64,000 nucleotides of DNA. Origin: an uncultured delta proteobacterium. GTDB taxonomy: Bacteria; Myxococcota_A; Polyangia; Polyangiales; Polyangiaceae. Within the stretch, counting starts at the first letter, position 1; each line of letters opens with the position of its first letter. The notes under the pieces are model-generated. The model made no database searches. It saw only the letters and a list, made by a program, of their open reading frames with translations, and was not told where the DNA came from. The position numbers and the translations under genes were made by a program. The stretch spans positions 513,029 through 577,028 of the forward strand of contig CAVXQJ010000016.1 in assembly GCA_963763745.1 (NCBI GenBank), written 5' to 3'. Positions 10,404-27,520 of this stretch are shown in pieces.

Positions 10404-10526
10404 GGGCTGTCGTGTGATTGCACGCCAAACGCGAAAGATTCCTGCCAGCGCCGAGTGAGCAGCGAGTCGTGATTGCGCTGTCATGAATCTTTCGCTGGGG
10501 ATTGGCATGCAATCACACGACAGCCC
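10404..10526. repeat. Palindromic hairpin element family 2, copy 1; overlaps start of DUF559 gene (approximate)
   Basis: Arms gggctgtcgtgtgattg...gcgaaagattcctgccagcgc and gcgctgtcatgaatctttcgc...caatcacacgacagccc are reverse complements; second copy at 11.2 kb. Confidence 0.65.
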
Positions 10527-10863: not shown

Positions 10864-11242
10864 GCGCCGCGCAGATGATGTCGAGTGCGGCTTGGATGTC
10901 GCGCTCGACGAGGTCGGACGAGATTCGGAGAACGCGGACGCCGTAGAGACGAGCAAGCTCAGCGTCGCGCCGCGCATCGCGCTCGCGTTGCTCCGCGTGA
11001 ATGCCACCGTCGACTTCGATGACGAGCTTGTAAGAAGCAACGAAGAAGTCCGCGATGAACGGATGAAGCGGATGCTGCCGCCGAACGCGAACGCCGAGCT
11101 GTTTGCCGCAAACGCGGCGCCAAAGCAGCGCCTCGCTTCGTGTCGGAGCTTTGCGCATCTCGCGAGCGCGTTGCGTGATTGAGAAGAGCGAAGGGCTGTC
11201 GTGTGATTGGTCGTGCATGCCAACTACGAGCGAAAGATTCAT
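10856..11242 (-). CDS. DUF559 domain protein, paralog 2 (convergent, 3' ends overlap by 8 nt)
   Basis: MNLSLVVGMHDQSHDSPS...RSEALLW...RRQHPLHPFIADFFVASYKLVIEVDGGIH; N-terminus is nucleotide-identical to the paralog over about 50 bp, the rest diverged at DNA level but conserved as protein. Confidence 0.7.
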   Translation of the reverse strand: MNLSLVVGMHDQSHDSPSLFSITQRAREMRKAPTRSEALLWRRVCGKQLGVRVRRQHPLHPFIADFFVASYKLVIEVDGGIHAEQRERDARRDAELARLYGVRVLRISSDLVERDIQAALDIICAALI

Positions 11243-11327
11243 GACAGCGCACTCACGCCTCGCTGCTCACTCTGCGCTGGCAGGAATCTTTCGCGTTCGG
11301 CGTGCACGACCAATCACACGACAGCCC
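11193..11327. repeat. Palindromic hairpin element family 2, copy 2 (inverted relative to copy 1; approximate)
   Basis: gggctgtcgtgtgattgg...cgaaagattcatgacagcgc / gcgctggcaggaatctttcgc...caatcacacgacagccc. Confidence 0.65.
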
Positions 11328-11385
11328 GAAGTGTTCGCGCCACCAACCTGCGACGAGCCCCCATCCCCGCTACCAACCCACCTCA

Positions 11386-11473
11386 ATTTCGGCGAAGCCG
11401 AAATATGAGGGGGCGCCAACACGCGCAGGCTCGAAACTTCCGCCTCACGCGTCTCGTGCGTGAAGTTTCGAGC
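11386..11473 (-). terminator. Two tandem hairpins at the 3' end of the radical-SAM operon (approximate)
   Basis: atttcggc-gaa-gccgaaat palindrome and gctcgaaacttc...gaagtttcgagc 12-bp stem with 21-nt loop spanning the rSAM stop codon at 11445. Confidence 0.3.
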
Positions 11474-12593
11474 CGAGCATGTTGGCGGGGGGAGAGAGAA
11501 GCAGAAGCAACAAACCGCACAACGCGCGGACACTCCGGATCCCCCCATCCCCCGCACCCAAAAACCGCGAAACCGCCTTGCACCCGCCACGACACACGTC
11601 GCGCAAGGCACACGCATCACACGGCGCGCTCGTCCCGTGCGCCGCCACTTCACCCGGCTCCAAAAAACTGCACGGCGCGCTTCGCCCATCGGAGCGCACC
11701 GCGGACAGCGCCGCGCCCGCTTCGCAACCGAAGACGCCGAGCGCGCGCAAGTCGGCCGCGCGATCGTAGAGCGCGTCGGAGAGGAGCGCGACCATCGCGC
11801 AGTCGATGCGGAGGCGAAAACCCGATGCGTGCATTCTGCACACGATGTGCTCGATCGCCTCTCCCAGCGACGCGACTTGTTCGCGCGTGAGACGCTTCGC
11901 GAGGTAGTCGAGCTTCGCAGCGCGGCCAGCCGGTTTGTATCGGAGGAGCTGCGCTTCGCGCGCGCCGAGATCGCGAGCGCGCGCGATCGTGTCGCCCAGC
12001 GCGGGGAAGCTCTGGCGCGTGAGGACGACGTTGACGCCGAACGGGACGTTCGCTTCGTGGAGGAGTCGCATCGCGCGCTCGGCGACGCGCGCGCCGGGGA
12101 ACGCGCGGACGGAGCGATACACTTCGTCCTCGCCGTCGTAGCTCACGTTGACTTGCGCGAACGCGCCGAGCGCGCGTGCCTTGTCGCGCGTCATGCCGAC
12201 GCCGCTCGTCGTGACGACGGGGATGAGGCTGTGTGCGCGCGCTCTCTTTGCGAGCTCGCCGAGGTCGTCGCGAAGGAGCGGCTCGCCGCCGCCGAACGCA
12301 ACCGTGAAGACGCCGCTCTGCGCGAGCGCTTCGAGCGTACGTTCGAGCGCGTCGCGTTCGACGTGCGCGCCATCGGGGCGCGCATCGAGATAACAACCTT
12401 CGCATCCGACGTGACACTGCGACGTGACCGCGACGTGCGCCTCGAGCGGCGCGCTCTTCGTGATCGCGATGTCGCGCCACGCATCGCCGCCGTCGATTCC
12501 AATCTTGCGCGCACCTTCGCGATCGAGCGCGACGAGCGCCGCGGGCTCATCGACCCGCACCCATGCCCCCCAACTCTCGATGCGCGTCCTCAC
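11445..12593 (-). CDS. Radical SAM enzyme with C-terminal SPASM domain (peptide-modifying maturase-like)
   Basis: CHVGCEGC (CxxxCxxC) radical-SAM cluster motif and C-terminal CDACALRDVCRGGC (Cx2Cx5Cx3C) SPASM motif. Start set at GTG 12593 because it overlaps the upstream peptide stop as GTGA; the long 645-aa ORF upstream of this point is Arg-rich off-frame junk overlapping two real genes. Confidence 0.75.
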   Translation of the reverse strand: MRTRIESWGAWVRVDEPAALVALDREGARKIGIDGGDAWRDIAITKSAPLEAHVAVTSQCHVGCEGCYLDARPDGAHVERDALERTLEALAQSGVFTVAFGGGEPLLRDDLGELAKRARAHSLIPVVTTSGVGMTRDKARALGAFAQVNVSYDGEDEVYRSVRAFPGARVAERAMRLLHEANVPFGVNVVLTRQSFPALGDTIARARDLGAREAQLLRYKPAGRAAKLDYLAKRLTREQVASLGEAIEHIVCRMHASGFRLRIDCAMVALLSDALYDRAADLRALGVFGCEAGAALSAVRSDGRSAPCSFLEPGEVAAHGTSAPCDACALRDVCRGGCKAVSRFLGAGDGGIRSVRALCGLLLLLLSPPANMLGSKLHARDA

Positions 12594-12829
12594 GACTCCG
12601 TCTCCGTCCCCGACTCCGACGCCGTCCCCGTCTCCGTTCCCGACCCCGACTCCGACTCCGTCTCCGCCTTCGCCGCGACGATCGCCGCGCACGCCGCGGC
12701 CACGATCGCACCCGCCGCGATCTGCGCGATGAACAGCGTGTCGATCACGCTCCCGATGCTCGAACAGTTCGCGCCGTGCCCTTCGCGCACGACGACGACG
12801 TGGTCTTCGAGCTCTTTCGGGTCGCTCAT
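12590..12829 (-). CDS. 79-aa small protein: hydrophobic helix plus C-terminal (E/G/A)(T/S) dipeptide-repeat tail; candidate substrate/precursor of the adjacent radical-SAM enzyme
   Basis: MSDPKELEDHVVVVREGHGANCSSIGSVIDTLFIAQIAAGAIVAAACAAIVAAKAETESESGSGTETGTASESGTETES; ATG overlaps the upstream gene stop (ATGA) and its stop overlaps the rSAM GTG (GTGA); about 90% G/C at codon third positions in this frame. Confidence 0.55.
   Translation of the reverse strand: MSDPKELEDHVVVVREGHGANCSSIGSVIDTLFIAQIAAGAIVAAACAAIVAAKAETESESGSGTETGTASESGTETES
12596..12675. repeat. Imperfect hexanucleotide microsatellite (GACTCC/GTCTCC/GTCCCC)n of about 13 units (approximate)
   Basis: Read on minus strand it encodes the ET/ES/GT tail of the small peptide; the -1 frame gives GD/GV repeats; a related (GGGGAC/GGAGAC)n tract encodes the (GD)n C-terminus of HflX at about 27393-27445. 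Confidence 0.6.
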
Positions 12830-13803
12830 AGGCCGAAGCTCTCGAGGTATCGGACGTCGATGCCATAGAGGACGATGAACGCGGCAGACGCAACGGCGGC
12901 GACGGAGACGATCGCGCGACCGACGCGCGCGGCGCGGGTGTGCGCGCCCGCGAGACCCCATGCGCGTGCGACGAGGATGATGGGGAACATCGCGGCGGGG
13001 AGCGCCAAGAATGGCGTCGCGTGCCCGCGCTCGTACGCCGTCGCGAGGACCGCGGCGAATGTTGCAAGATACACGCAAATGAGGGCGGCTTTTGGCGCGA
13101 ATCGGAGCATCGATCGCGCGCTCGCGCCGCGGAGCTTTCGAGCGCTCGCGGCGATGCCGAGCACGCCAAAGACGACGAGCACCCCGATCGACGCGCGAAA
13201 CACGAAGCGACGACGCGTCCACCGCGCGACGCGAGCGACGAGATCGGGCGCGCTCTTGCCCGCGCGGGCGGCGGCGTGCTTCGCGGCGGTCGCGTCGCCG
13301 CGTTCCGTCGCGAGGTCGACGAGGCGCGACGCGGCTTGCGCGCGGAGCGGCACGTCGCTCTTCGGCTCGTCGAGGAGCGCATCGAGCTCGCGCTCCGCGT
13401 CGGCGGGTCGCGCGAGCTTCGACGCGTAGCTCTCGGCGACGAACATGCGCGCCTCGGTACGCACTTCGCCCGGCGGGAACGCTTCGAGATCGCGCGCGAG
13501 CCCGTCGACGAGCGCGGCGTTCGCTTGCGCGTTCGGATCGCGGCGTGCGCGTTCGAGCTTCACGAGCGGCGCGAAGTCGCCTTCGGATCGATCATGCAGC
13601 CAGCGCGCGCGCGCCGAGGAGCGGAGCGCCCAGCGATTCGACGGATCCGTTTGGATCGATGCTTCGTAGTGCGCGAGCGCGCTCGCGAAATCGAGATCGC
13701 GCTCTTCTTGCTCGGCCGCCGCGTAGAGACGCTCCGCCTCGGCGCGTGATGACGAGTCGCTCGATGCGACGGCGATGGCGCCAAAGAGAATGAGCGCGGT
13801 CAC
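12826..13803 (-). CDS. Membrane protein with N-terminal signal peptide, periplasmic TPR-like region and C-terminal multi-TM domain
   Basis: MTALILFGAIAVASS signal; helical TPR-like segment (ALAHYEASIQTDPSNRWAL...); 4 predicted TM helices at C-terminus; first gene of the coupled three-gene unit. Confidence 0.6.
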   Translation of the reverse strand: MTALILFGAIAVASSDSSSRAEAERLYAAAEQEERDLDFASALAHYEASIQTDPSNRWALRSSARARWLHDRSEGDFAPLVKLERARRDPNAQANAALVDGLARDLEAFPPGEVRTEARMFVAESYASKLARPADAERELDALLDEPKSDVPLRAQAASRLVDLATERGDATAAKHAAARAGKSAPDLVARVARWTRRRFVFRASIGVLVVFGVLGIAASARKLRGASARSMLRFAPKAALICVYLATFAAVLATAYERGHATPFLALPAAMFPIILVARAWGLAGAHTRAARVGRAIVSVAAVASAAFIVLYGIDVRYLESFGL

Positions 13804-13831
13804 GCAGGGAAGTTGATGCAGCGCGCGAGCG

Positions 13832-15682
13832 TTGTACAGAGCAAACGTGCTCTGCTACTCGTGTCGCGTGCGGCGTTCCGTTTTTGCGCTGTCGCTTCTG
13901 CTCTTCGCAGGTTGCAAGGGATGCAAAAACGAGCATCCGTACGTTCCGTACACGATCGCCGACGACGCGGGCGACGCAGAGGTCGCCGCAAGCGACGCGG
14001 GCGATGACGCCATCGCGCCGATTCACGAGACCTCCGCGACGCAAGCGCCCGCCGGAACGGCGCGATGGACGCTCGATGGCGTGACGCTCGTCGCGCCGAC
14101 CGGAATGGTGTTCGAGCTCGGCGTCGTTCGCGACTTCGATGGTGACGGCAACAAAGACGCCGCCGCGATCGCGCGACGCGACGGACAAGAAGGCGATCTC
14201 GGGACGCTGCTCTATTACCGCGGCGATCCGGCGGGCCTGCGATCTCCGCTGACGGTCGCGCCGTCGCCGACGTTTGCGCCGGCGGGCGCGGCGTGTACGG
14301 CGAAGCGGAGAATGTCCGCCGTCGGTCGTCACTCGCTCTTCGTCGAGCTCGGCGCGCTTTGCACGGCGCCTTCTCCGAAAGAGCCGTCGCGACAAATCTC
14401 GGTGTGGACGCTGCGAGCCGAGCCGCGCGTGCACTTGTCGGCGCAAGTGATCGATCCGCCGGGCGCGCCGAAGCTCTCGTTCGTCGTCGATGCGAGCGAC
14501 GCGGACGGCGATGGGCTCGATGACGTCCTCTTGCGCGCGTCGGTCGAAGGCGGAGACGCGCCGTTCGAGCCGCTCCCGCGCGCGGATGCGACGCTGCGAT
14601 GGTTCGATCGTCCCGCCGGCATGAGCCGCGATCCCGACGGGCCCGATGGATCGCTTCGCGCGTTCGCCGCGGGTCTCGCGATTCGCGCGGCGAAGGCGAA
14701 GGATGCGCCGCAAGTGCTCGCGCAGGCGCGCGCGGTGCGCGTGCTTTGGAGCGCGCTGTGCGGCGATGGTCGATCGCCGCGCGTCGTGAAGATGTTCGGC
14801 GGCGCACCCATCACGTGCGGCGCGAGCCGCGCGCTCGAGGAAGCGGGTCTCGCGGAGGCTCGCGCGCACGCAGCGCTCGGCGATCCGCTCGGCGCGATCG
14901 CCGCGCTCGATCGCGCGCAAGTCCCGCCGGCGACGAAGACCGCGCAGCGAAGCAAAGACGCGGAGAATTGGATCGCGCAGATCGCGCCCGTGACGCAAGC
15001 GACGCAAGTGCGCTCGATCGCCGCAGTGCCGCAGTCGTCGCGATCGACCGCGCCCGCGTGGGGCGCGCTCGCGTTCGAGCCTTCGGGCAAGCTCCTCGTG
15101 CGCACGGCCGCGGGCGTCGTGCGCGTCGATCCCGAGCAAGGCGACGAGACGGACGCGAGCGATCAGAAGACGTGGGGCGAGGCCGTCGTGTCGCCCGATG
15201 GATCGCAGCGATTCACCGAAGCGTTCGAGCCGTGCGACGGCGCCTCGCTCCACGCGACGTTCACGCCCACCGACGGAAGCGACGCGACCGATGTGCTCTT
15301 GCCGATCGCGTCGCACACGCTCTCGCGTTGCACGAACGCAAAGGGAACGCCCGCGCCCGTCGTGCCGCTCGCGAACGGTCTTGGTGGTCTCGAAGTGATC
15401 ATCGCGGGCGAGCCCATCTTGGTCACCGCGGGTCACGCGTCGCTCCTTCGCTCCGCGCTCGGTCAACCAACGCCGCACGGTTCCGCGCGCTCGCCGGACG
15501 GCAAGACCTTCGCGTTCGCGACGTCGCTCGGCGTGCTCGTCCAAGGTCCGACGAAGTCGCGCGTCCTTCGTCAGGCGACGCTCGATGGAACGTACGCCGA
15601 GCAGCGCGATTGCACCGCCTCCGACGACGGAACGCGCGTCGCATGCGTTCGCGCGGGCAAAGCGTGGGTCGCTACGTTCTGA
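13832..15682 (+). CDS. Lipoprotein with FG-GAP/VCBS-like Asp-Gly motifs
   Basis: ORF 13832..15682; lipobox LLLFAGC (alternative GTG start at 13868 gives MRRSVFALSLLLFAGC); DFDGDGNKD and DADGDGLDD calcium-binding-like motifs. Confidence 0.55.
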   Translation: MYRANVLCYSCRVRRSVFALSLLLFAGCKGCKNEHPYVPYTIADDAGDAEVAASDAGDDAIAPIHETSATQAPAGTARWTLDGVTLVAPTGMVFELGVVRDFDGDGNKDAAAIARRDGQEGDLGTLLYYRGDPAGLRSPLTVAPSPTFAPAGAACTAKRRMSAVGRHSLFVELGALCTAPSPKEPSRQISVWTLRAEPRVHLSAQVIDPPGAPKLSFVVDASDADGDGLDDVLLRASVEGGDAPFEPLPRADATLRWFDRPAGMSRDPDGPDGSLRAFAAGLAIRAAKAKDAPQVLAQARAVRVLWSALCGDGRSPRVVKMFGGAPITCGASRALEEAGLAEARAHAALGDPLGAIAALDRAQVPPATKTAQRSKDAENWIAQIAPVTQATQVRSIAAVPQSSRSTAPAWGALAFEPSGKLLVRTAAGVVRVDPEQGDETDASDQKTWGEAVVSPDGSQRFTEAFEPCDGASLHATFTPTDGSDATDVLLPIASHTLSRCTNAKGTPAPVVPLANGLGGLEVIIAGEPILVTAGHASLLRSALGQPTPHGSARSPDGKTFAFATSLGVLVQGPTKSRVLRQATLDGTYAEQRDCTASDDGTRVACVRAGKAWVATF

Positions 15683-16300
15683 TCAAGCCGAGGAGCTGAT
15701 CAGCGCAGCGCGGATGGTGCGCGCGAGGAGCTCCGTCGCAGCCGAAGGCGACAGCTGCATCGCGTAACGCATCGTGTCCCACGTGCGACCGTGCGAGAGG
15801 AGATCGAGCGTATCGAGGAGCTCGCGGCGCGACTCGCTCGCGTCGAGCTCTTCGGCGAACACTTGCTCCACCTCGCGACGACGGCGCTGCCACGCTTCGT
15901 CCGTCGCGCGTCCGATCGCGGTCGAACCGGTCTTTGGCGTCGCACCGACGACGGATGCCGCGCGCCGCACCGGCGAGCAAAACTCGAGCTCGCGCCCGCG
16001 CGCTTCGGCGAACGCATTCACGCGTTGATCGAGCGTGAGTCGCGCGTCGACGTACGCCTTCATCGGCCCGACGCGCCGCGCGTGCTCCTCGACCGCCGCG
16101 ACGAACAAGTCCTCGCGCGAAGGAAAATGCTGACGAATCGATCGCACGGCGACGCTCGCGCGCTTCGCGATCTGACCTGCCGTCGGCGCGAGGTTCCCTT
16201 CCTCGATCAAGTCGATGAGCGACGCGACGATCGCCTTGTGCGTACGCGCGGACCGCTCGCGCCGGCCGTCCCGTCTCTCGAGCGCTCGCTGCGGAAGCAT
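15683..16300 (-). CDS. TetR/AcrR-family transcriptional regulator
   Basis: N-terminal HTH (AGQIAKRASVAVRSIRQHFPSREDLF) typical of TetR family; about 200 aa. Confidence 0.8.
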   Translation of the reverse strand: MLPQRALERRDGRRERSARTHKAIVASLIDLIEEGNLAPTAGQIAKRASVAVRSIRQHFPSREDLFVAAVEEHARRVGPMKAYVDARLTLDQRVNAFAEARGRELEFCSPVRRAASVVGATPKTGSTAIGRATDEAWQRRRREVEQVFAEELDASESRRELLDTLDLLSHGRTWDTMRYAMQLSPSAATELLARTIRAALISSSA

Positions 16301-16314
16301 TCACATGAGGGGTA

Positions 16315-16734
16315 TCACGGAGTGACGGTGAGCGTTCCGTGCATCGTCATGTAGTGGCCGGGGAACGTGCAGATGTAAGGATACGTTCCGGCCGCTGGGG
16401 CGGTGAACGTCACCTCGACTTGTCCACCGGGCTGGCTGAGGCCCGTGTGCGCGAGGACGTCGGCGCTGCCCTTCGGAACGTAGCCGGCCGCTTCGCCCGC
16501 CGTCATTCCCGCCGTCGCGACCTCGGCTTCTTTGCCCGGGCTGACGAGCACCCAGTTGTGCTTCATCGCCTGGGACGTCGCGTGGTTCGTCAAGACGACG
16601 TGCACCGTCTGACCGCTCTTCACGGTGAATGCGGTCTTGTCGTACGCCATCGTCTCGCCGACCGTGCCGAGGTTGATCTCGGCGGTGCCTTTGCACGCCG
16701 TCACGAGCGCGAGACACGCGATGAGCTTTTTCAT
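16315..16734 (-). CDS. Azurin-like blue-copper protein (cupredoxin) with lipoprotein signal
   Basis: Trimmed from ORF 16315..17526 to MKKLIACLALVTAC; copper-ligand motifs HNWVL and CTFPGHYMTMHG as in azurin. Confidence 0.8.
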   Translation of the reverse strand: MKKLIACLALVTACKGTAEINLGTVGETMAYDKTAFTVKSGQTVHVVLTNHATSQAMKHNWVLVSPGKEAEVATAGMTAGEAAGYVPKGSADVLAHTGLSQPGGQVEVTFTAPAAGTYPYICTFPGHYMTMHGTLTVTP

Positions 16735-16796
16735 GCCCCGGTTGTGCCGCCGCGAAGCGCGCAGGTCAAGTCGAAATATATGGGATCCCATACATC

Positions 16797-17555
16797 TCAA
16801 CGCAGTTGAAATGCCCCGATCACGTCGGCGCGCTTCACGGGTCCGCCGTGGCCCAAGTAGAAGGTCTGAACGCCGAGATCGAGGAGCGCCTGGATGTTCT
16901 TTCGGTTCTGCGCGGGGTCGGCTTGATAGAGGTGCTCGCCGGGCGAGTGTGGAAAGAAGAGCCCGCCGAGCGCACCGCCCGCGATCATGTCGCCGACGAA
17001 CGCGGTGTGATCGGCGAGCAAGATGACGATCGATCCGGGCGTGTGGCCCGGCATCTCGATCACTTTTCCGGCGATGCCCCACGGCGCGAGATCGATCGCG
17101 TCGTTCGGACGCACGATGATGTCCGGCACGAGCTCGGGGTATTCGGTCGTGAGAAATGGCTTGAGCACGGCGCCCGTGAAGCCAGTCGGTTTGAGATCGT
17201 CGTCGTGACCTGCCGCGGCGAGCGAAAAATCGCCGAGGCCGAGCATGACCTTCGCTCCGGCGAGCCTTTGGATGTCGGCTGCGAGACCGGCGTGATCGGC
17301 GTGGCCGTGCGTCACGACGACGAGCCCGACCGAGCTCCTCGCGACGCCGCGCTCGGCGAGCGCCGCCGCGAGATCGTCCATGTCGCCGAGAGTCCCCGAA
17401 TCGACGAGCACGGGATGCCGCGTGCGAATCATGAACACGTTCGAGAGACGCAGCGGGATTTGGACGATCTCCGCGGACCCACCACTGGTGAGGGGCGCCT
17501 TCCCGACGACGGTGGGTCCGGCGCAAGCGAAGAGGAGAGGGAACAGGAAGATCAA
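16797..17555 (-). CDS. Metallo-beta-lactamase-fold hydrolase (likely exported); start uncertain
   Basis: VTHGHADHAG HxHxDH motif; trimmed from ORF 16797..18539; only in-frame ATG is at 17432 (MIRTRHP) but a conserved beta-strand plus LLFACAG lipobox precede it; possible TTG start at 17555 lies inside repeat family 3 copy 2. Confidence 0.55.
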   Translation of the reverse strand: MIFLFPLLFACAGPTVVGKAPLTSGGSAEIVQIPLRLSNVFMIRTRHPVLVDSGTLGDMDDLAAALAERGVARSSVGLVVVTHGHADHAGLAADIQRLAGAKVMLGLGDFSLAAAGHDDDLKPTGFTGAVLKPFLTTEYPELVPDIIVRPNDAIDLAPWGIAGKVIEMPGHTPGSIVILLADHTAFVGDMIAGGALGGLFFPHSPGEHLYQADPAQNRKNIQALLDLGVQTFYLGHGGPVKRADVIGAFQLR

Positions 17556-18101: not shown

Positions 18102-18809
18102 ATGTTCTCGCTTCCCGGCCGACTGCGCGCGACGACGCTCGGCGATTTGCTCGGCGTGCTTCACCGCGCGGGCGCGAGCGGAACCCTCGAGCTCACCGAA
18201 GATCGCGGGCGCACGCACCGCGTCCACATCACGTCGGGGCTCGTCACGTCCGTCGAGCTCGATGGCGCGAGCCCGCCGCTCACCGATCTCCTGAAGACCG
18301 CCGGTGCGCTCGACGACATGACGATTCGTCGCGCGGTGCTCCGCGCTCTCACCTCGCAGCGCCTCGTCGGCGAAGTGCTCGCGTCCGACTTCCACGTGTC
18401 GCCCAACGTGATCGACGTCGCGCTGCGCGACCAGCTCGTCTTGCGGCTGCGCGCGCTCGAGTCGATCGAAGACGCGCGCGTCGGCTTTCGTGCGTGCGTG
18501 CGTCCGCCGCGCGAAGCTCTGCGCGATCGTCCGCTCCAAGCGAGCGAGTTTCTACGCGGCCGCCGCCGCGCGCGCGATCGCGACGCGAAGACGCAAACCC
18601 CAACCCCCGCTCCATCGCGCGACTCGAGCGCGTACACGCTGCTCGGCGTGGAGCGCGACGCGGACGCTGCGGAGATCCGCCGCGCGTTTCGGCGTCTCGC
18701 GCGGGAGCTGCATCCTGATCGACATCCGGAGGCGAGCGAGGGTGAGCGACGCGCGCTTGCGTTGAAGTTCGCGCAAGTCGCGGCGGCGTATCAGGCGCTC
18801 GTCGCCTGA
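18102..18809 (+). CDS. DUF4388-domain protein with C-terminal DnaJ (J) domain
   Basis: N-terminal TTLGDLLGVL...GTLEL (DUF4388-like) and C-terminal YTLLGVERDADAAEIRRAFRRLARELHPDRHP with HPD motif. Confidence 0.7.
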   Translation: MFSLPGRLRATTLGDLLGVLHRAGASGTLELTEDRGRTHRVHITSGLVTSVELDGASPPLTDLLKTAGALDDMTIRRAVLRALTSQRLVGEVLASDFHVSPNVIDVALRDQLVLRLRALESIEDARVGFRACVRPPREALRDRPLQASEFLRGRRRARDRDAKTQTPTPAPSRDSSAYTLLGVERDADAAEIRRAFRRLARELHPDRHPEASEGERRALALKFAQVAAAYQALVA

Positions 18810-19136
18810 ATTTCTCCCCCCGCTCGTGCTCGGGCTCGTCCTCGGTCATGCTCGGCGGCCGATGCATGCATTGTACATGTTTCCGCCTGCGCGTGACCTT
18901 GCGGGCGAGCCCTGCGCGCGAGCGTCCCCCTCTCGGTGTCGGCCCAAAGCGGCCGCCACCGAGGTGGGAAGTGTCTTCACTTTCTCATTGAAGACCATTC
19001 CCCCTCGCGTTCGCGAAGCGAACGCATGAGGGGGACGCTCGCGCGCAGGGCTCGCCCGCAAGCCGCGGTGAGGATGTGTCGTGGCTCTGGACCGCGGCGA
19101 GGACGAGCCCGAGCACGAGCGGGGGGAGAACTTCTC
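18809..19136. repeat. MITE-like palindromic repeat family 1, full-length copy B (about 328 bp, nested inverted repeats; approximate)
   Basis: Terminal inverted repeats atttctccccccgctcgtgctcgggctcgtcctcg / cgaggacgagcccgagcacgagcggggggagaa; inner IR cttgcgggcgagccctgcgcgcgagcgtccccctc / gagggggacgctcgcgcgcagggctcgcccgcaag; central gcgttcgcgaagcgaacgc palindrome. Confidence 0.7.
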
Positions 19137-22104: not shown

Positions 22105-23019
22105 GTGAGCGCCGAGCTCGACGCGATCGCCGCGAAGATTCGCGAGAACGTCCGCAAGCGCGCCGACGGCGACATCGACGTGATGCGTTCGCGCAAAGCG
22201 TTCGAGGCGATGGGCAAGCTCGCTAAGCCGGCGGAAGGCGTGAAGCACGCCTCGTCGGAGGTCCTCGGCGTTCGTTGCGACGTCACCGTGCCCGCCGAGC
22301 ACGATCGCGATCGCAGCATCATTTATTTTCACGGCGGAGCGTTCGCGCTCGGCGCGCCGGAATTTTATCGCGCGTGGCTCTCGCATCTCGCGGTCGCATG
22401 TCGCGCGGAGGTGTGGGCCGTCGATTATCGGCTCGCGCCCGAGCATCCATTTCCTGCGGCGCCCGACGATGCGCTGCGCGCATGGCGTGGCGCGCAAACG
22501 ATCACGAAGCTGACATCGGCCCGCGTCGTGATGATGGGCGACTCGGCCGGCGCGAACCTCACGCTCGCCACGATGATCGCGGCGCGCGACGCAGGACTGC
22601 CTCTGCCCGCGGCCGCCGTGCTCATCTCGCCGTGGATCGATCTCGCGCTCGGCGGCGCGTCGGTCGCGTCGAACCGCGAGCGCGATCCGCTCATTCGCGA
22701 AGGCGACAGTCGCGCGTACGCCGCGCTCTACGCGGGTCAGGCTTCCACGAGCGACGCTCGCATCTCGCCGCTCCACGGAGCCCTCGCAAAGCTCCCGCCG
22801 ACGTACGTCCAAGTCGGCAAAGACGAAATCCTCTACGACGACGCAACGCGCTTCGAAGCGAAGGCGCGCGCGGCCGGTGTCGACGTCACGCTCGACGCGT
22901 TCGATGGCGTCTTCCACGTGTGGCACTTGCTCGCGGGCGTCGCGCCCGAAGCGAACGACGCGATCTCGCGCATCGGCGAGTTCGTTCGGCGCGTCGTGCC
23001 CTCACGCGAGCCTCACTGA
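22105..23019 (+). CDS. Alpha/beta hydrolase (HSL-family esterase/lipase)
   Basis: HGGAF oxyanion motif and GDSAG nucleophile elbow; GTG start. Confidence 0.8.
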   Translation: MSAELDAIAAKIRENVRKRADGDIDVMRSRKAFEAMGKLAKPAEGVKHASSEVLGVRCDVTVPAEHDRDRSIIYFHGGAFALGAPEFYRAWLSHLAVACRAEVWAVDYRLAPEHPFPAAPDDALRAWRGAQTITKLTSARVVMMGDSAGANLTLATMIAARDAGLPLPAAAVLISPWIDLALGGASVASNRERDPLIREGDSRAYAALYAGQASTSDARISPLHGALAKLPPTYVQVGKDEILYDDATRFEAKARAAGVDVTLDAFDGVFHVWHLLAGVAPEANDAISRIGEFVRRVVPSREPH

Positions 23020-24134
23020 ATGTCGAATTTGAAGTCCGGGCCCCACGAGTTCGTGGAGGACGGGAACACGTCCGTCGTCGTGACGGTCGACGAGCAAGCC
23101 GAGATGGTGATGTTTCCGTGCGGGCCGCTCACCGTGAACGGATAACTCGGGCCGTCCTTGCGCGGGAGCACGGTGTTCACGTTCGTCATGTAGACGCCGA
23201 TCACGTAAGCCGTGTTCGCTTGCACGGTGTACGAGATGTTCGATCGATAGAACTGCTCGGTGCTGGCGCCAGTCACGTTCGAGCCGAGCGCGAGCTGCGT
23301 TTGGCTCGTGTTCCAGATCTCCGCGTGGATCGAATCGCTCGAGGCGAGGTTCGCCTTCCATTCGACGCCGCTGATCGTCTGCGATTGCGCGAACGTCACC
23401 GTGTAGGCGCGCACGCTCCACACGCTCGAGCTTCCTGGATCGTAGAGCGTGCCCGTCGGCGGGAAGATCTCGACTGCTGTCTCCGTGACGGTGCACGTCG
23501 AGTTCGCGCATATCCCGTTGCACACGACGCCGCATCCGCCGCAGTTCGCGGTGTCCGTCGTCGTGTTCGCGCAGTACGGCGAGCCCGCGTCGGGCTCGCA
23601 GAGCGTCTGACCTTGCGGGCACGTCGAGCCGCATTTCCCGGCGTCGCACGCCGTGAGCTGTCCGCATATGACGCCGCACGCGCCGCAGTTCGAGTTGTCG
23701 CTCGACGTGTTCGCGCAGTACGGACCTGCGTCGCCGCCGTCGGGCGCGCAGATCGACGTGGGCTGCGCGCATTGGAGCGCGCATTTTCCCGCGACGCATT
23801 TCTGATTCGTCGTGCACTTGGTTCCGCACGCGCCGCAGTTCGTGTCGTCGGTCTGCGTGTCGACGCAAGTCGAGCCGCAAATCTTCGTGTTGTTCGAGCA
23901 CGTCGTGCCGCACTTGCTCGCGCTGCACACTTGGCCGGACGGACACGCGTTGCCGCACGCGCCGCAGTTCGCGTTGTCGTTCGAGACGTTCACGCAGGAC
24001 GATCCGCAGAGCGTCCCGCCGCCGTCGCACTGCGAGCTCCCGCCGTCGTCGCCGGCGATGAGCCCACCCGTGGCGCACGCCATCACGGTCGCGAGGGCGG
24101 TGATCAAACCAATGACGATGCGTCGTCGTGTCAT
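23013..24134 (-). CDS. Lipoprotein with six Cys-rich NCGACG repeats (myxobacterial disulfide-repeat type) and a C-terminal beta-rich domain
   Basis: Lipobox ALATVMAC; repeats ...NCGACGxxCxxGQxCxxGxC...; paralogous architecture at 36774..37607. Confidence 0.65.
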   Translation of the reverse strand: MTRRRIVIGLITALATVMACATGGLIAGDDGGSSQCDGGGTLCGSSCVNVSNDNANCGACGNACPSGQVCSASKCGTTCSNNTKICGSTCVDTQTDDTNCGACGTKCTTNQKCVAGKCALQCAQPTSICAPDGGDAGPYCANTSSDNSNCGACGVICGQLTACDAGKCGSTCPQGQTLCEPDAGSPYCANTTTDTANCGGCGVVCNGICANSTCTVTETAVEIFPPTGTLYDPGSSSVWSVRAYTVTFAQSQTISGVEWKANLASSDSIHAEIWNTSQTQLALGSNVTGASTEQFYRSNISYTVQANTAYVIGVYMTNVNTVLPRKDGPSYPFTVSGPHGNITISACSSTVTTTDVFPSSTNSWGPDFKFDIQ

Positions 24135-25450
24135 GGCACTTCCCGAAATCCCTTTCCCACTTTTTCGGCGATGCGGGCTTCCGCTTCGACGAGCGCCTCA
24201 CCCTCCGAGGCGAACGACTTCGTTTTGACCTCGAATGTGCCGTAGCGCACGCGATGTTTCGTGCCGACGACCTCGATCTCCCAGAACGCGTTCGTCTCGT
24301 CGTCGCGCATCTCGAAACGCCTTATTTTCGGGGCGATCCCGGTTCCGGCGGACTTCTGCGTTTTTTCGAAGAGTTGGACCGGAGCGGGTTTCTCTTTCGG
24401 GTGCGGATGGAATTCGGCGTCCGCGCGCTCGCCGACGTAGCTCGGGAAGCGCGGCACGCCTCCATCGGACAGCTCTTGGTAACGGAACGTGATGATCGTT
24501 CCGATCGCAGGCGGGTGCTCGCGCTCTTTGTCCGAGAAGCCCGTGCCGACGTTGAAGCGCGTGCCGTCTTCGAGCTCGACGACGAGCGCGCCGAGCCGGC
24601 CCTTGTGCTTTCCCATGCCGGCGACGTGCTCGACGATCTTCGCCTCGGCGTCGTGGAACGTCTTCACTTTGAGGAGCGTCGTCGAGCGGCCGGCTTCGTA
24701 TTTCGATCCGGGCTTGCGAAGCATCATGCCTTCGCCGCCGAGCGCCTCGACGCGCGCGAGCTCCTCCTTCAGATGCGCTTCGTCGCGGCAGGTCTCGTGC
24801 GGATGCATCCTTGCATATTGCAACTTCTCGCCGACGACCTCGCGGATGTGAGCGAGGCGCTCTTCGAACGTGCCGCCGTGCTTGGGCGCGTCGAAGACGA
24901 GGTACTTGAGCGTCTTCCACTCCGGCGGCTTGTCTTGCCGCTTCACGATACCGACGGTTTTCTGAAACGTCTTTCGCCCGCCCCACAGCTCCCCGTCGAG
25001 CGGCGTCTTCGGAAGATCCGCGATGAACCAATCGGGCGCGTGAAAAACATTTCCGAGGCGCGAGATGAACTGCACGCCATCCCAGTACGCGCGCACGCCG
25101 TCGAGCTTCTCGCTCATCCACCAACCCTCGAGCGCGATGTCCATCTCCCACTTGTGCGCGAGGAGAAGAGGCGGCGCTTTGTCGGGCGCGTCGACCTCTT
25201 CGCCGTCTTCGTTGACGATCTTCTTGCGAGCGGGTTTTCCGGCGAGCTCCACGTTGCCGAGCCGCGCCTTCTCGGCTTCGTCGCCGCGATACGCGCGAAT
25301 GTGTTTGCACGTGCGCTGCTCGATGCCGAGCGATTGATTGCGCCACGCAGGACACGTGCACGAGTACACGCCGCCCACGTTCTTCAGCGTGTAGATGGAG
25401 GAGCCAGAGCCTTGAACTTCGACGGATGCGCCGTCTTCGAGATCGGGCAT
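24131..25450 (-). CDS. ATP-dependent DNA ligase with N-terminal SWIM zinc finger and C-terminal WGR domain
   Basis: KLDGVRA (motif I KxDG), LDGELW (motif III), LLKVK (motif V); SWIM CTCPAWRNQSLGIEQRTCKH (CxCx14CxH); C-terminal FWEIEVVGTKHRVRYGTF WGR-like; trimmed from ORF 24131..25654 because the first 68 codons are read-through of repeat family 1 copy C. Confidence 0.8.
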   Translation of the reverse strand: MPDLEDGASVEVQGSGSSIYTLKNVGGVYSCTCPAWRNQSLGIEQRTCKHIRAYRGDEAEKARLGNVELAGKPARKKIVNEDGEEVDAPDKAPPLLLAHKWEMDIALEGWWMSEKLDGVRAYWDGVQFISRLGNVFHAPDWFIADLPKTPLDGELWGGRKTFQKTVGIVKRQDKPPEWKTLKYLVFDAPKHGGTFEERLAHIREVVGEKLQYARMHPHETCRDEAHLKEELARVEALGGEGMMLRKPGSKYEAGRSTTLLKVKTFHDAEAKIVEHVAGMGKHKGRLGALVVELEDGTRFNVGTGFSDKEREHPPAIGTIITFRYQELSDGGVPRFPSYVGERADAEFHPHPKEKPAPVQLFEKTQKSAGTGIAPKIRRFEMRDDETNAFWEIEVVGTKHRVRYGTFEVKTKSFASEGEALVEAEARIAEKVGKGFREVP

Positions 25451-25470
25451 GGTGGCGAGATATATCAGAG

Positions 25471-25695
25471 GTTTCTCCTCCGCTCGTGCTCGGGCAGGGG
25501 TCTCCCCCCGCTCGTGCTCGGGCTCGTCCTCGTCAGCGGCGGACGATGCGAGCAGCGTGAATGTTCCGCCTGCGCGTGACCTCGCGCGCAGCCCGGCGCG
25601 CGCAGAGCCGCGCGGAGGCGAAACATGTATATTGCACGCATTGTCGCCGAGCACGGCCGAGCATGCCGGCGAGCACGAGCGGGGGAGAAATCTCG
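25471..25695. repeat. MITE-like palindromic repeat family 1, copy C (approximate)
   Basis: Left arm ctccgctcgtgctcggg (duplicated) ...gcctgcgcgtgacc; right arm cgaaacatgtatattgcacgcattg...ggcgagcacgagcgggggagaaatctc; lies between divergent ligase and hflX starts. Confidence 0.65.
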
Positions 25696-27520
25696 CCTAT
25701 ACTCCGCCCCCTTGGAAATCTACGGCAACACATCCGGCCTCTCGCCGTCCGCGAAGAAGACGCTCGAGCGCATCTATCGCCGGCGCGTGCCCATCGACAC
25801 GCTCGTCACGCCCGAGCTCCAGCGTTCGCTCGTCGATGCGTCGATCGAGACGGGCCGACAAGTCGGCGTGCTCGTGCATCGCTCCGGGCAAGTCGATTAC
25901 GTGATCGCGGGCGACGCGGGGAAGCTCGAGCTTCCGAACGTCGGACGCTTGCGCGCCGCGGAGGGACGCCTTCGCGGTCTTCGATTGATCCACACGCACG
26001 TGCGCGGCGAGCCGCTCACGCAAGACGATCTCATCGACCTCGTGCGGCTTCGGCTCGATCTCGTGTGCGCGATTCAGCTCGCGCCGACGGGCGAGGTGCG
26101 CGCGCTCTCGTATGCGCACAACGTTCCGGGGCAGCCGCCGTATCGCGTCATCGGACCGCTCCTTCCGGGCCGCGCGGATCTCGACGTCGGCAGGCTCGTC
26201 TCGGATCTCGAAGCCGAGTTCGGCAAGCTCGCAAAGGGCCGCGCCGTCCGCGCGAAGGACGGCCGCGCGATCTTGATCTTCGTGAACGAGAAGCGAGACA
26301 GAGATGGCTGGCACACGCAGGTCAAGATGCACGAGCTCCGCGAGCTCGCGCGCACGGCGGGCGTCGAGGTCGTCGATTCGATCGTTCAGGCGCGCGAGAA
26401 GGTCGATCCAAAAACCATCATGGGGCAGGGCAAGCTCGACGACGTCATCTTGCGCGCCGCCGAGCTCGACGCCGACGTCCTCATCTTCGACCGCAACCTG
26501 AGCCCGTCGCAGTCGAGCGCGATCGGCAAGACGAGCGAGCTCAAGATCATCGATCGCAGCCAGCTCATCTTGGACATCTTCGCGCAGCGCGCCGAGAGCA
26601 AAGACGGCAAGCTCCAAGTCGAGCTCGCGCAGCTGAAATATTCGATGCCGCGCCTCGGGCAAAAAGACGACTCGCTCTCTCGCCTCACGGGCGGCATCGG
26701 CGGACGCGGGCCGGGCGAAACGAAGCTCGAGATCGGACGACGCCGCGCGAAGGAGCGCGTCGCGCACCTCGAAGCGCAGCTGAAGAAGCTCGGCAAGCAA
26801 CGCGAGCAGCGCCGCCGCAAGCGCTCGCGCGAAGGCGTGCCGACGGTCGCCATCGTCGGCTACACGAACGCCGGCAAGAGCACGCTGCTCAACACGTTGA
26901 CGGGCGCCGACGTCCTCGCGGAAGACAAGCTCTTCGCGACGCTCGACACGCGCTCTCGCGTGCTCAAGGTCGGTTGGGCGGGCTACGGCGATCGCGAGGT
27001 CGTCGTGACGGACACGGTCGGTTTCATCCGGGACCTGCCGAAGGATTTGTTCGCTGCGTTCCGCGCGACGTTCGAAGAAGCGGCCGACGCCGATTTGCTC
27101 TTGCACGTCGTCGACGCGAGCGATCCCGCGAAAGACGATCACATCGCGACGACCGCCTCTGTGCTCGAGCAGCTCGATCTCGCGAATGTGCCGCGCGTGC
27201 TCGTGTTCAACAAAATCGATTTGCTGGAACCGCTCGAAGAAAAATCGCTCGCACGCGCGAACCCCGACGCGGTGCTCGTGACCGCGACCAAGCGCGACAC
27301 GCTGCGGCCTCTCATCGAGCGCATCGCGGCGGAGCTCGCGACGCGGTGGGAAGACGCGGCGAAGGTTCCGAGCGGGGCCTCTGTCGGGAGCGGAGTCGGA
27401 GATGGGGACGGGGACGGAGACGGAGACGGGGACGGACGCGGGCACGGCGATGCCGAGGAGCTGACGACGCTCGACGCGATGCTCGAAGCCGCGGGGCGAA
27501 AGCGGCGGCGGAGCTCGTAA
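25625..27520 (+). CDS. hflX: GTPase HflX with about 200-aa N-terminal extension and C-terminal (GD)n tail; start uncertain
   Basis: HflX N-domain (RAILIFVNEK...ELRELARTAGVEV), G-domain GYTNAGKSTLLN / DTVGF / NKID; ORF ATG at 25625 lies within repeat copy C, alternative TTG/GTG starts downstream. Confidence 0.8.
   Translation: MYIARIVAEHGRACRRARAGEKSRLYSAPLEIYGNTSGLSPSAKKTLERIYRRRVPIDTLVTPELQRSLVDASIETGRQVGVLVHRSGQVDYVIAGDAGKLELPNVGRLRAAEGRLRGLRLIHTHVRGEPLTQDDLIDLVRLRLDLVCAIQLAPTGEVRALSYAHNVPGQPPYRVIGPLLPGRADLDVGRLVSDLEAEFGKLAKGRAVRAKDGRAILIFVNEKRDRDGWHTQVKMHELRELARTAGVEVVDSIVQAREKVDPKTIMGQGKLDDVILRAAELDADVLIFDRNLSPSQSSAIGKTSELKIIDRSQLILDIFAQRAESKDGKLQVELAQLKYSMPRLGQKDDSLSRLTGGIGGRGPGETKLEIGRRRAKERVAHLEAQLKKLGKQREQRRRKRSREGVPTVAIVGYTNAGKSTLLNTLTGADVLAEDKLFATLDTRSRVLKVGWAGYGDREVVVTDTVGFIRDLPKDLFAAFRATFEEAADADLLLHVVDASDPAKDDHIATTASVLEQLDLANVPRVLVFNKIDLLEPLEEKSLARANPDAVLVTATKRDTLRPLIERIAAELATRWEDAAKVPSGASVGSGVGDGDGDGDGDGDGRGHGDAEELTTLDAMLEAAGRKRRRSS

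What the first reader, a model, noticed from the sequence alone, without database searches (positions are those of the whole stretch)
24131..25450. Minimal ATP-dependent DNA ligase fused to an N-terminal SWIM zinc finger and a C-terminal WGR domain
The ligase nucleotidyltransferase motifs I, III and V are present. The CxCx14CxH SWIM finger and the W-G-R module (FWEIEVVGTKHRVRYGT) flank the catalytic core. Both add-on domains are nucleic-acid/damage-recognition modules. The combination suggests a dedicated break-sensing repair ligase rather than a replicative enzyme. The gene's apparent 5' extension is an artefact of the adjacent repeat.
Basis: partly seen in the sequence, partly recalled or inferred. 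Interest (0 to 1): 0.5.

Follow-up and report, generated by a model that had tools for sequence, protein, structure and literature searches.

The report
Cytoplasmic Lig E ligase with SWIM and WGR
This gene encodes a small ATP-dependent DNA ligase without an export signal, with a zinc-finger module tethered in front and a WGR module behind; it belongs to a widespread family already noted in the literature but never tested in bacteria, whose eukaryotic relatives are radiation-induced repair ligases.

Summary
Window 24131-25450 (- strand) is an intact 439-aa gene. It has an N-terminal CxCx14CxH zinc-finger domain (res 1-65) and a disordered linker. Then comes a Lig E-type NTase+OB core (res ~104-345, NCBIfam PRK09125 335 bits, 40-42% identical to solved Lig E structures). 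A second linker leads to a WGR domain (res 373-439, above the Pfam cut-off).

The SWIM call is only partly supported. Pfam SWIM is the only hit to the N-domain but is sub-threshold (12.4 vs 19.6 bits). Fold searches found nothing. However, the four metal ligands are present in all 120 homologues, and UniProt names fungal homologues with the same domain "SWIM-type".

The 5' ORF extension is indeed an artefact: it reads through a 261-bp MITE-like insertion that a close relative lacks.

The architecture is not rare. At least 580 species-level genomes carry it (Myxococcota, Planctomycetota, Verrucomicrobiota and others), with no conserved neighbour genes. Two papers already noted a leaderless Lig E cluster and an NT-OB_2-WGR cluster.

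What seems unreported in the papers I read: the N-domain is as conserved as the catalytic core, and in the architectures sampled it always precedes this ligase core. It also occurs with BRCT, PBZ and PD-(D/E)XK modules. A repair role is likely but inferred.

The parts
24131..25450 (-). Complete CDS, 439 aa plus TGA stop (24131-24133). The stop overlaps the ATG of the downstream gene (ATGA).
   Evidence: identical 439-aa NCBI protein P0001.
25256..25450 (-). N-terminal zinc-finger domain, residues 1-65. Predicted as three beta strands, a short helix, then two helices. SWIM-type signature C31-x-C33-x14-C48-x-H50 at nt 25301-25360.
   Evidence: Motif. AF2 domain model pLDDT 86.6. Pfam SWIM 12.4 bits, below GA 19.6. 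Mean pairwise identity 0.78 across 72 homologues. Homologous fungal domains are named SWIM-type.
25142..25255 (-). Linker 1, residues 66-103. Charged, predicted disordered.
   Evidence: AF2 pLDDT below 50 for residues 69-79 and 84-103. Pairwise identity 0.52.
24656..25141 (-). Nucleotidyltransferase (adenylation) domain, residues ~104-265. Catalytic lysine K115 (KLDG) at nt 25106-25108. Contains motifs III, IV and V.
   Evidence: Pfam PF01068.. Invariant columns. Alignment to Lig E structures 4d05 and 8u6x.
24416..24655 (-). OB-fold domain of the Lig E/chlorella-virus type (DNA_ligase_OB_2), residues ~266-345.
   Evidence: Pfam PF14743 E 8.9e-29. Foldseek top hits are 4d05, 8u6x and 6gdr.
24335..24415 (-). 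Linker 2, residues 346-372. Predicted disordered and poorly conserved.
   Evidence: AF2 pLDDT below 50 for residues 358-371. Pairwise identity 0.22.
24134..24334 (-). WGR domain, residues 373-439. It is the short bacterial type, with the triad position reading Y403-G404-T405.
   Evidence: Pfam PF05406 at 28.8 bits, above GA 22. Family profile vs PDB 2ra8_A E 1.5e-15. Translation.
25451..25711 (.). MITE-like element with terminal inverted repeats, inserted between the ligase ATG and the likely hflX TTG start (25712). It is not part of the gene, but it is the cause of the spurious 68-codon upstream ORF extension.
   Evidence: Inverted repeat I1/I4. Second copy at ~18806-19135. Absent from relative L001, where the two genes are about 35 bp apart.

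Best explanation
The gene encodes a cytoplasmic, stand-alone ATP-dependent DNA ligase of the Lig E lineage.

Catalysis (shown by homology). A minimal two-domain core (NTase + OB) does the chemistry. K115 is adenylated by ATP, AMP is transferred to a 5'-phosphate at a break, and the 3'-OH attacks to seal it.

Accessory modules. Canonical Lig E enzymes are exported to the periplasm and have no accessory domains. This protein has no signal peptide. Instead it carries two small modules on long disordered tethers: an N-terminal Cys2-Cys-His zinc finger of SWIM type and a C-terminal WGR domain.

Proposed mechanism (inferred). The tethered modules supply the substrate-finding or DNA-clamping function that the dedicated DNA-binding domains of larger ligases provide. 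They would hold the enzyme at 5'-phosphorylated nicks or ends, or bring it to partner proteins there, and the core then seals the break. This resembles the zinc finger of DNA ligase III and the WGR of PARP2/3.

Role (inferred). The enzyme most likely serves DNA-break repair rather than replication. By general knowledge, bacterial replication uses NAD-dependent LigA.
For: Core identity:
- NCBIfam PRK09125 scores 335 bits against a cut-off of 200.
- Identity to solved Lig E structures 4d05, 8u6x and 6gdr is 40-42%.
- Catalytic motifs are invariant.

Not exported:
- The N-terminus is an acidic, folded zinc-finger domain. Maximum 15-aa Kyte-Doolittle hydropathy in the first 75 residues is 0.58.
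- Published analysis found a leaderless Myxococcales Lig E cluster grouping with fungal sequences (PMC8455567).

Modular build:
- AF2 gives three confident domains joined by low-confidence linkers.

The N-domain is under selection as strong as the catalytic domains:
- Pairwise identity is 0.78, against 0.73 (NTase) and 0.81 (OB).
- It always precedes this ligase core in the architectures sampled, while WGR varies from 0 to 5 copies and sits on either side.
- A separate WGR gene lies 4 bp downstream of the ligase in L004.

DNA-damage context of the N-domain elsewhere:
- fused to 4x BRCT (P0239);
- fused to a PD-(D/E)XK nuclease (P0219);
- PBZ + N-domain + ligase in the opisthokont Pigoraptor (P0256, 54% identical to the window protein over N-domain plus core).

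Functional precedent:
- Eukaryotic Lig E homologues are induced by irradiation, account for much of the break-ligation activity, and raise the radiotolerance of human cells (PMC10665377).
- The PARP2 WGR binds 5'-phosphorylated breaks and bridges ends (PMC6294510, PMC8190142, PMC4081085).
Against: - No binding or activity data exist for any bacterial member.
- The window's WGR appears to lack the W and R of the triad (Y-G-T). In PARP2, W151 and R153 contact the DNA ends (PMC6294510). The register used here is inferred from Pfam and family alignments, not from a direct structural superposition.
- Neither accessory domain is net basic: 8 K+R vs 8 D+E in the N-domain, 13 vs 13 in WGR.
- SWIM domains with known function (Shu2/SWS1) act in protein-protein contacts (PMC5727457).
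- No repair gene is a conserved neighbour in 80 loci.
- No LexA-box-like site lies upstream (motif recalled from memory).
- Family members without WGR exist (P0085, P0049), so WGR is not essential to the enzyme.
Confidence: 0.6

Rival explanations
1. The ligase core is as described, but the SWIM-type finger and/or the WGR are protein-protein recruitment modules rather than DNA sensors. They would dock the ligase onto another repair or replication factor.
For: - The only structurally characterised SWIM domain found in the literature search (Shu2) mediates contacts with Shu1 (PMC5727457).
- Neither accessory domain is net basic.
- The N-domain is fused elsewhere to BRCT repeats and a cyclin, which are scaffold or adaptor-type proteins.
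Against: - No conserved neighbour gene suggests a partner.
- The same N-domain and core pairing persists from Myxococcota to fungi. That would require a partner conserved across domains of life.
- WGR has documented DNA-break binding in PARP2 (PMC6294510).
Confidence: 0.22
2. The enzyme acts on RNA or RNA-containing substrates (RNA repair, or sealing of RNA-DNA junctions), with WGR as an RNA-binding module.
For: - In Labilithrix luteola the orthologue lies about 1 kb from RtcR-RtcB-RtcA and a Ro60/TROVE gene (L002).
- The 2020 review describes WGR as functioning in RNA binding in other proteins (PMC7470946).
Against: - That neighbourhood is not conserved in 80 other loci, in the window, or in its close relative.
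- The core is 40-42% identical to enzymes shown to be DNA ligases.
- Characterised eukaryotic homologues seal DNA breaks (PMC10665377).
Confidence: 0.07
3. It is an ordinary periplasmic Lig E acting on extracellular DNA (competence or biofilm), and the N-terminal region is mis-annotated.
For: - The core is of Lig E type.
- Lig E is described as periplasm-targeted and linked to biofilm formation and transformation (PMC10799422; bioRxiv 10.64898/2026.03.22.713542).
Against: - There is no hydrophobic leader.
- The start codon is fixed by an identical NCBI call, by dozens of homologues, and by a relative with only a 35-bp intergenic gap.
- A cysteine/histidine zinc finger, conserved in every homologue checked, occupies the N-terminus.
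- The published analysis also calls this clade leaderless (PMC8455567).
Confidence: 0.03
4. The gene belongs to a mobile element, phage or defence system rather than to host genome maintenance.
For: - A MITE-like element abuts the start codon.
- A 485-kb uncultured phage record carries an N-domain plus core homologue at 47.6% identity (LR745208.1).
Against: - No PADLOC model matches.
- The neighbours are housekeeping genes (hflX, efp, urocanase) and are syntenic in a relative that lacks the MITE.
- GC content is uniform across the region.
- There are no integrase or phage genes nearby in the fetched loci, and no conserved neighbourhood.
Confidence: 0.03

Closest known systems
Lig E (minimal periplasmic ATP-dependent DNA ligases of Proteobacteria; structures 4d05 Psychromonas, 8u6x Neisseria gonorrhoeae, 6gdr Alteromonas)
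   Same: - The two-domain NTase + OB_2 core is the same, at 40-42% identity.
- All catalytic motifs are present.
- It matches the NCBIfam PRK09125 equivalog model.
- There is no large DNA-binding domain or latch within the core.
   Different: - It has no signal peptide and so is presumably cytoplasmic.
- It carries an N-terminal zinc finger and a C-terminal WGR on disordered tethers.
- It is found mainly in Myxococcota, Planctomycetota and Verrucomicrobiota rather than in the classical proteobacterial hosts.
The 'leaderless Myxococcales Lig E cluster' (PMC8455567) and the 'bacterial NT-OB_2-WGR cluster' of delta-proteobacteria and Planctomycetia linked to fungal ligases (PMC7470946)
   Same: This is very probably the same family. 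The taxa match, the core matches, WGR is annotated in most members, and the family is connected to fungal sequences.
   Different: - In the passages I searched, those papers describe sequence-network clusters only.
- None of the four ligase papers I searched contains the word SWIM.
- I found no experimental data for bacterial members in them.
Eukaryotic ligase E / 'LigK' (Adineta vaga AvLigE, Mortierella MvLigE; PMC10665377, PMC6264785)
   Same: - Eukaryotic family members retrieved here share both the core and the N-domain: Pigoraptor P0256 is 54% identical and the fungal P0217 is 43% identical.
- 99 of 120 fungal homologues have one or two CxCx15CxH copies before the KxDG motif.
- The Blastopirellula marina orthologue was already drawn next to AvLigE in PMC6264785.
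   Different: - Eukaryotic forms add PBZ fingers and low-complexity repeats, and usually lack WGR.
- I could not check whether AvLigE and MvLigE themselves carry the N-domain.
DNA ligase III (N-terminal PARP-type zinc finger as nick sensor) and PARP2/3 (WGR as sensor of 5'-phosphorylated breaks)
   Same: The design logic is the same: a small zinc finger and/or a WGR is tethered to a catalytic unit that acts at DNA breaks (3l2p title; PMC6294510, PMC8190142).
   Different: - The finger families are unrelated (CxCxnCxH SWIM type versus the PARP type).
- The WGR here is the short bacterial type, closest to 2ra8, and appears to lack the W and R contact residues.
- The resemblance is an analogy, not homology of the whole protein.
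LigD (bacterial NHEJ ligase working with Ku)
   Same: Both are ATP-dependent accessory ligases of bacteria with a presumed role in break repair.
   Different: - TIGR02779 scores 47.5 bits against a cut-off of 227.75, and TIGR02776 34.7 against 373.2.
- There are no polymerase or phosphoesterase domains.
- The OB domain is of a different type.
- No Ku-like conserved neighbour occurs in 80 loci.

Membership tests
[quoted passage not shown] | Whole-protein score above the curated equivalog cut-off | tested here: met
   335.2 bits against a cut-off of 200, covering model positions 24-282 of 283.
[quoted passage not shown] | Nucleotidyltransferase motifs I (KxDG), III, IV and V, plus an OB_2-type OB domain, with no extra DNA-binding domain inside the core | tested here: met
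   - EKLDG with K115.
- F186-D187, E240-G241, K261 and K263 are invariant.
- PF01068 and PF14743 both match.
- Identity to 4d05, 8u6x and 6gdr is 40-42%.
[quoted passage not shown] | N-terminal signal peptide and periplasmic location (as described for canonical Lig E) | tested here: not met
   - No hydrophobic segment: maximum hydropathy 0.58 in the first 75 residues.
- The N-terminus is a folded zinc-finger domain.
- The literature notes a leaderless Myxococcales subgroup (PMC8455567).
SWIM zinc finger (Pfam PF04434; PROSITE SWIM-type) | CxCxnCxH signature with n in the typical range (6-16 according to PMC5727457) | tested here: met
   - C31-x-C33-x14-C48-x-H50.
- Present in 120 of 120 close homologues and in 99 of 120 fungal homologues.
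SWIM zinc finger (Pfam PF04434; PROSITE SWIM-type) | Score above the Pfam gathering threshold | tested here: not met
   - 10.7-12.4 bits against 19.6 for the window protein.
- 29 of 33 family N-termini hit SWIM at E<=10, with a best E of 7e-4.
- P0121, which has three copies, reaches 29.3 bits only as a sum.
SWIM zinc finger (Pfam PF04434; PROSITE SWIM-type) | Independent database recognition of the homologous domain | tested here: met
   UniRef/NCBI name P0217 and about 17 further fungal homologues 'SWIM-type domain-containing protein'. This is indirect, because the window protein itself was not scanned with PROSITE.
SWIM zinc finger (Pfam PF04434; PROSITE SWIM-type) | Fold similarity to a solved SWIM domain, and zinc binding | tested here: inconclusive
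- The PDB profile search found only chance hits.
- The solved SWIM domain I know of (Shu2) has an atypical 59-residue insert (PMC5727457), and no SWIM entry appeared among the PDB hits.
- Zinc binding is not testable with these tools.
WGR domain (Pfam PF05406) | Score above the Pfam gathering threshold | tested here: met
   23.8 bits on the long ORF and 28.8 bits on the isolated C-terminus, against 22.
WGR domain (Pfam PF05406) | Sequence relationship to a solved WGR-containing protein | tested here: met
   The family profile A6 matches 2ra8_A residues 3-67 at E 1.5e-15.
WGR domain (Pfam PF05406) | Conserved Trp-Gly-Arg triad (W151 and R153 contact the DNA ends in PARP2, PMC6294510) | tested here: not met
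   - The window has R-Y403-G404-T405-F.
- Relatives with a canonical second copy have Y-G-K.
- The register is inferred from family and Pfam alignments, not from a superposition on PARP2.
LigD / NHEJ ligase | Score above the TIGR02779 / TIGR02776 cut-offs; polymerase and phosphoesterase domains; Ku partner | tested here: not met
   - 47.5 bits against 227.75, and 34.7 against 373.2.
- No additional Pfam domains.
- No recurrent neighbour in 80 loci.
- The rest of the genome was not available.

The most novel reading that the evidence does not exclude
The roughly 65-residue CxCx14CxH domain may be a dedicated and so far unstudied DNA-break-targeting (or damage-signal-reading) module that defines an intracellular branch of the Lig E lineage.

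Three observations fit this reading:
- It is as conserved as the catalytic core.
- It always precedes this ligase core, from Myxococcota and Planctomycetota to fungi and unicellular opisthokonts.
- It has been recombined with BRCT repeats, PBZ fingers, a PD-(D/E)XK nuclease and WGR.

If it binds breaks, it would be a bacterial-eukaryotic counterpart of the PARP-type finger of ligase III. It would also mark the bacterial lineage from which eukaryotic, radiation-protective ligase E genes were acquired.
Probability: 0.35. Interest if true: 0.55.

Novelty: new member of a known kind. Interest (0 to 1): 0.35.

Why it matters
Bacterial accessory ATP-dependent ligases are poorly understood outside LigD/Ku and periplasmic Lig E. 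This gene represents a large family, found in at least 580 species-level genomes, that is intracellular and has not been tested experimentally in bacteria.

Its eukaryotic relatives have been shown to raise radiation tolerance, so the bacterial enzymes are the natural place to learn how a minimal ligase core is directed to breaks by small tethered modules.

The finding itself is an ordinary member of that family. The value lies in pointing to the conserved N-terminal finger, which the ligase papers I read do not discuss.

Tried and rejected
- The AFDB library was not available.
- An N-domain profile against PDB sequences gave only chance nanobody hits.
- NCBIfam on the N-domain found nothing.
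- Looking up the contig of the exact window protein failed: it is not on record.
- Conserved-neighbour analysis on 80 loci: only the ligase and its own shadow ORFs recur, and no partner gene is in more than 6 loci.
- A Myxococcus-type LexA box (motif recalled from memory) has no site upstream and occurs less often than chance in the window.
- The sigma-70 promoter and terminator scan found nothing meaningful.
- Rfam over 22800-26200 gave no match, so the intergenic repeat is not a known RNA.
- PADLOC gave no defence-system match.
- I considered and rejected a periplasmic Lig E, LigD/NHEJ membership, and a mobile-element cargo gene.
Full report
**1. What is at the coordinates**

The - strand of window 24131..25450 holds an uninterrupted gene. 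The mechanical ORF runs further upstream to a GTG at 25654, which would give 507 aa. The real start is the ATG at 25450, for three reasons:
- An identical 439-aa protein has been called from that ATG in NCBI/ENA (P0001).
- The aligned homologues begin with the same M-x-D-L-x-D-G at that position, apart from a few with longer called N-termini.
- In an 81%-identical relative, only about 35 bp separate this ATG from the divergently transcribed hflX (L001).

In the window that gap is 261 bp (25451-25711). It is filled by an element with 45-nt terminal inverted repeats, including a perfect 16-nt core CCCCCGCTCGTGCTCG / CGAGCACGAGCGGGGG. A second, longer copy lies at about 18806-19135. The repeat is a MITE-like insertion.

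**2. Domain content**

Pfam finds DNA_ligase_A_M (E 1.8e-8), DNA_ligase_OB_2 (E 8.9e-29) and WGR (23.8 bits, cut-off 22; 28.8 bits on the isolated C-terminus). NCBIfam places the core in PRK09125, the Lig E model, at 335 bits against a cut-off of 200. The LigD models stay far below their cut-offs.

The catalytic lysine lies in EKLDG (K115, nt 25106-25108). Motifs III, IV and V and the OB-domain RFP are invariant among homologues.

An AlphaFold2 model built on 72 homologues has a mean pLDDT of 83.8 and shows three confident units:
- residues 1-65;
- residues about 104-345;
- residues 373-439.

These are joined by low-confidence linkers. Foldseek and phmmer against the PDB put the core next to the solved Lig E enzymes 4d05, 8u6x and 6gdr, at 40-42% identity.

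**3. The WGR domain**

A profile of the family's C-terminal domains matches the N-terminal WGR of PDB 2ra8_A at E 1.5e-15, so the assignment is sound. It is the short bacterial type.

By the family and Pfam register, the eponymous triad reads Y403-G404-T405 in the window protein. It reads Y-G-K in the extra canonical copies that Myxococcaceae members carry. In PARP2 the triad Trp stacks on the 5'-terminal ribose and the Arg contacts the 3' end (PMC6294510). The window's WGR may therefore not bind DNA in the same way. I could not superpose the two.

**4. The N-terminal finger**

C31-x-C33-x14-C48-x-H50 is present. The same signature occurs in 120 of 120 close homologues. The spacing lies within the range quoted as typical for SWIM, 6-16 (PMC5727457).

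Evidence for the SWIM call:
- Pfam SWIM is the only family that hits this domain in the window protein. It does so in the correct register (profile positions 13-32 on the CxC...CxH stretch).
- Of 33 family N-termini, 29 hit SWIM at E<=10, with a best E of 7e-4.
- Independent support comes from naming. The fungal homologue P0217 and many others that carry the same C[TS]CPAWRNQ...CKH domain are called 'SWIM-type domain-containing protein' by UniRef/NCBI.

Evidence that falls short:
- The Pfam score is only 10.7-12.4 bits against a cut-off of 19.6.
- A profile search of PDB sequences gave only chance hits. No SWIM entry appeared among the PDB hits.

My reading is that this is a divergent SWIM-type finger. 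That reading is supported but not proven for this particular protein.

**5. How common it is and what is conserved**

A scan of one genome per species found more than 580 stretches encoding relatives. Most of the best 80 match residues 1-438. They come from the following groups:
- Polyangiaceae, Labilithrix and Archangium;
- many Planctomycetota, including Blastopirellula marina DSM 3645;
- Verrucomicrobiota, Obscuribacterales, Armatimonadota and others.

Across 72 homologues the mean pairwise identity by region is:

| Region | Identity |
|---|---|
| N-domain | 0.78 |
| NTase | 0.73 |
| OB | 0.81 |
| WGR | 0.56 |
| Linker 1 | 0.52 |
| Linker 2 | 0.22 |

A profile of the N-domain alone, run against 1.84 billion representative proteins, gave 1029 hits at E<=1e-3 and 499 at E<=1e-10. 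Among the best 150, the N-domain is always directly upstream of this ligase core whenever a core is present. WGR, in contrast, appears 0 to 5 times and on either side. In locus L004 an additional WGR protein is encoded 4 bp downstream of the ligase.

The N-domain also occurs in other settings:
- after four BRCT repeats (P0239);
- after a PD-(D/E)XK nuclease (P0219);
- twice in a cyclin-domain protein (P0224);
- three times between an A20 finger and a WGR (P0121);
- as tandem repeats in one protein, 8 matched stretches and 7 domain hits (P0176);
- between a PBZ finger and the ligase core in Pigoraptor chileana (P0256);
- in two copies in basidiomycete ligases (P0217, P0235).

The Pigoraptor protein is 54% identical to the window protein over the N-domain plus core. 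That is more than the 40-42% to periplasmic Lig E.

**6. Genomic context**

The neighbours in the window are:
- hflX, divergent;
- a Cys-rich Stig1-repeat lipoprotein-like gene whose ATG overlaps the ligase stop;
- an alpha/beta hydrolase;
- efp;
- a metallophosphoesterase;
- urocanase.

This order is shared only with the closest relative (L001). All-against-all comparison of the ORFs from 80 loci found no neighbour family in more than 6 loci. The gene therefore stands alone.

Further negative results:
- no Rfam family over 22800-26200;
- no sigma-70-type promoter match and no more terminator-like sites than chance in 22900-26000;
- no LexA-box-like site upstream (motif from memory);
- no defence-system model.

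GC content is even across the region.

**7. Relation to the literature**

[quoted passage not shown] A 2021 network study (PMC8455567) found that the leaderless Lig E sequences come mainly from Myxococcales and group with fungal sequences. The authors checked that the N-termini were correctly annotated.

Hecox-Lea and Mark Welch drew the Blastopirellula marina orthologue next to the bdelloid 'LigK' (PMC6264785). Nicolas et al. showed that the Adineta vaga enzyme, renamed AvLigE, is radiation-induced. It contributes strongly to break ligation and raises the radiotolerance of human cells (PMC10665377).

None of these four papers contains the word SWIM. I found no experimental work on a bacterial member. 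The family is therefore known at the level of sequence clusters, and the window gene is a new member of it.

**8. Mechanism**

Shown by homology: ATP-dependent adenylation of K115, AMP transfer to a 5'-phosphate, and sealing by the NTase-OB core.

Shown from the sequence: there is no export signal, so the protein is intracellular, unlike canonical Lig E.

Inferred: the two tethered modules direct the minimal core to its substrate or to partner proteins. Support for this inference:
- the strong conservation of the finger;
- its recombination with damage-response modules;
- the documented break-binding and end-bridging of the PARP2 WGR (PMC6294510, PMC8190142, PMC4081085);
- the repair phenotype of eukaryotic Lig E homologues.

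Points against the inference:
- the triad substitutions in this WGR;
- the lack of net positive charge in either module;
- the protein-contact role of the one SWIM domain with a solved structure that I found (PMC5727457);
- the existence of family members without WGR.

I put about 0.6 on the overall statement. Within that, I put clearly less, about 0.35-0.45, on the specific claim that the finger itself senses DNA breaks.

**9. Verdict**

This is a typical member of a widespread, bioinformatically recognised but experimentally untouched bacterial family, so its novelty as a finding is modest.

The most interesting residue of the analysis concerns the SWIM-type N-domain rather than the WGR. It is the constant companion of this ligase core across bacteria and eukaryotes, and it travels with other DNA-damage-response modules.

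Noticed in passing
window 25451-25711 and window ~18806-19135: Two copies of a MITE-like element with about 45-nt terminal inverted repeats (core CCCCCGCTCGTGCTCG). One copy sits in the 35-bp divergent promoter region between the ligase and hflX and is absent from the 81%-identical relative L001. The other copy is longer, with a central insert. It may have rewired the promoters of both genes.
   Followed up: partly
window 23013-24134 (-): A 373-aa Cys-rich protein with a lipoprotein-like N-terminus and Stig1-type repeats (PF04885, E 1.8e-13). Its ATG overlaps the ligase stop codon (ATGA at 24131-24134), which suggests co-transcription. A 315-aa gene with no Pfam hit sits in the same place in L001, but the pairing is not conserved more widely.
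   Followed up: partly
window 25625-27520 (+), hflX: The mechanical ORF start at 25625 lies inside the MITE-like element. The likely start is the in-frame TTG at 25712, matching 'ttggaaatttac' in L001. Compared with L001, the C-terminus carries a (Gly-Asp)n insertion.
   Followed up: partly
L002 (Labilithrix luteola CP012333) 10440-17235: The ligase orthologue lies about 1 kb from an RtcR-RtcB-RtcA RNA-repair cluster and a Ro60/TROVE-vWA gene. This is not seen in the other loci, so it is probably coincidental.
   Followed up: partly
L004 7288-9264: Here the ligase is followed after 4 bp by a separate 192-aa WGR protein, with RecQ-like helicase fragments (Helicase_C, RQC, HRDC) just beyond it on the opposite strand. 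The split WGR gene argues that WGR and the ligase work together.
   Followed up: no
P0239, P0219, P0224, P0121, P0176 (hits): The N-domain occurs outside ligases in several settings: after four BRCT repeats; after a PD-(D/E)XK nuclease; twice in a cyclin-domain protein; three times between an A20 finger and a WGR; and as tandem copies, 8 matched stretches and 7 domain hits. Most of these come from short metagenomic contigs of unknown organisms.
   Followed up: partly
phage record LR745208.1, 79790-80818: A 485-kb 'uncultured phage' record encodes a homologue covering the N-domain plus ligase core (query residues 1-339) at 47.6% identity. The record has no annotation.
   Followed up: no
L003 (Archangium sp.) 10620-13761: Two genes downstream of the ligase lies a giant (over 2400 aa) protein with WD40 beta-propellers, HEAT repeats and a WGR domain. 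WGR is evidently a promiscuous module in these genomes.
   Followed up: no
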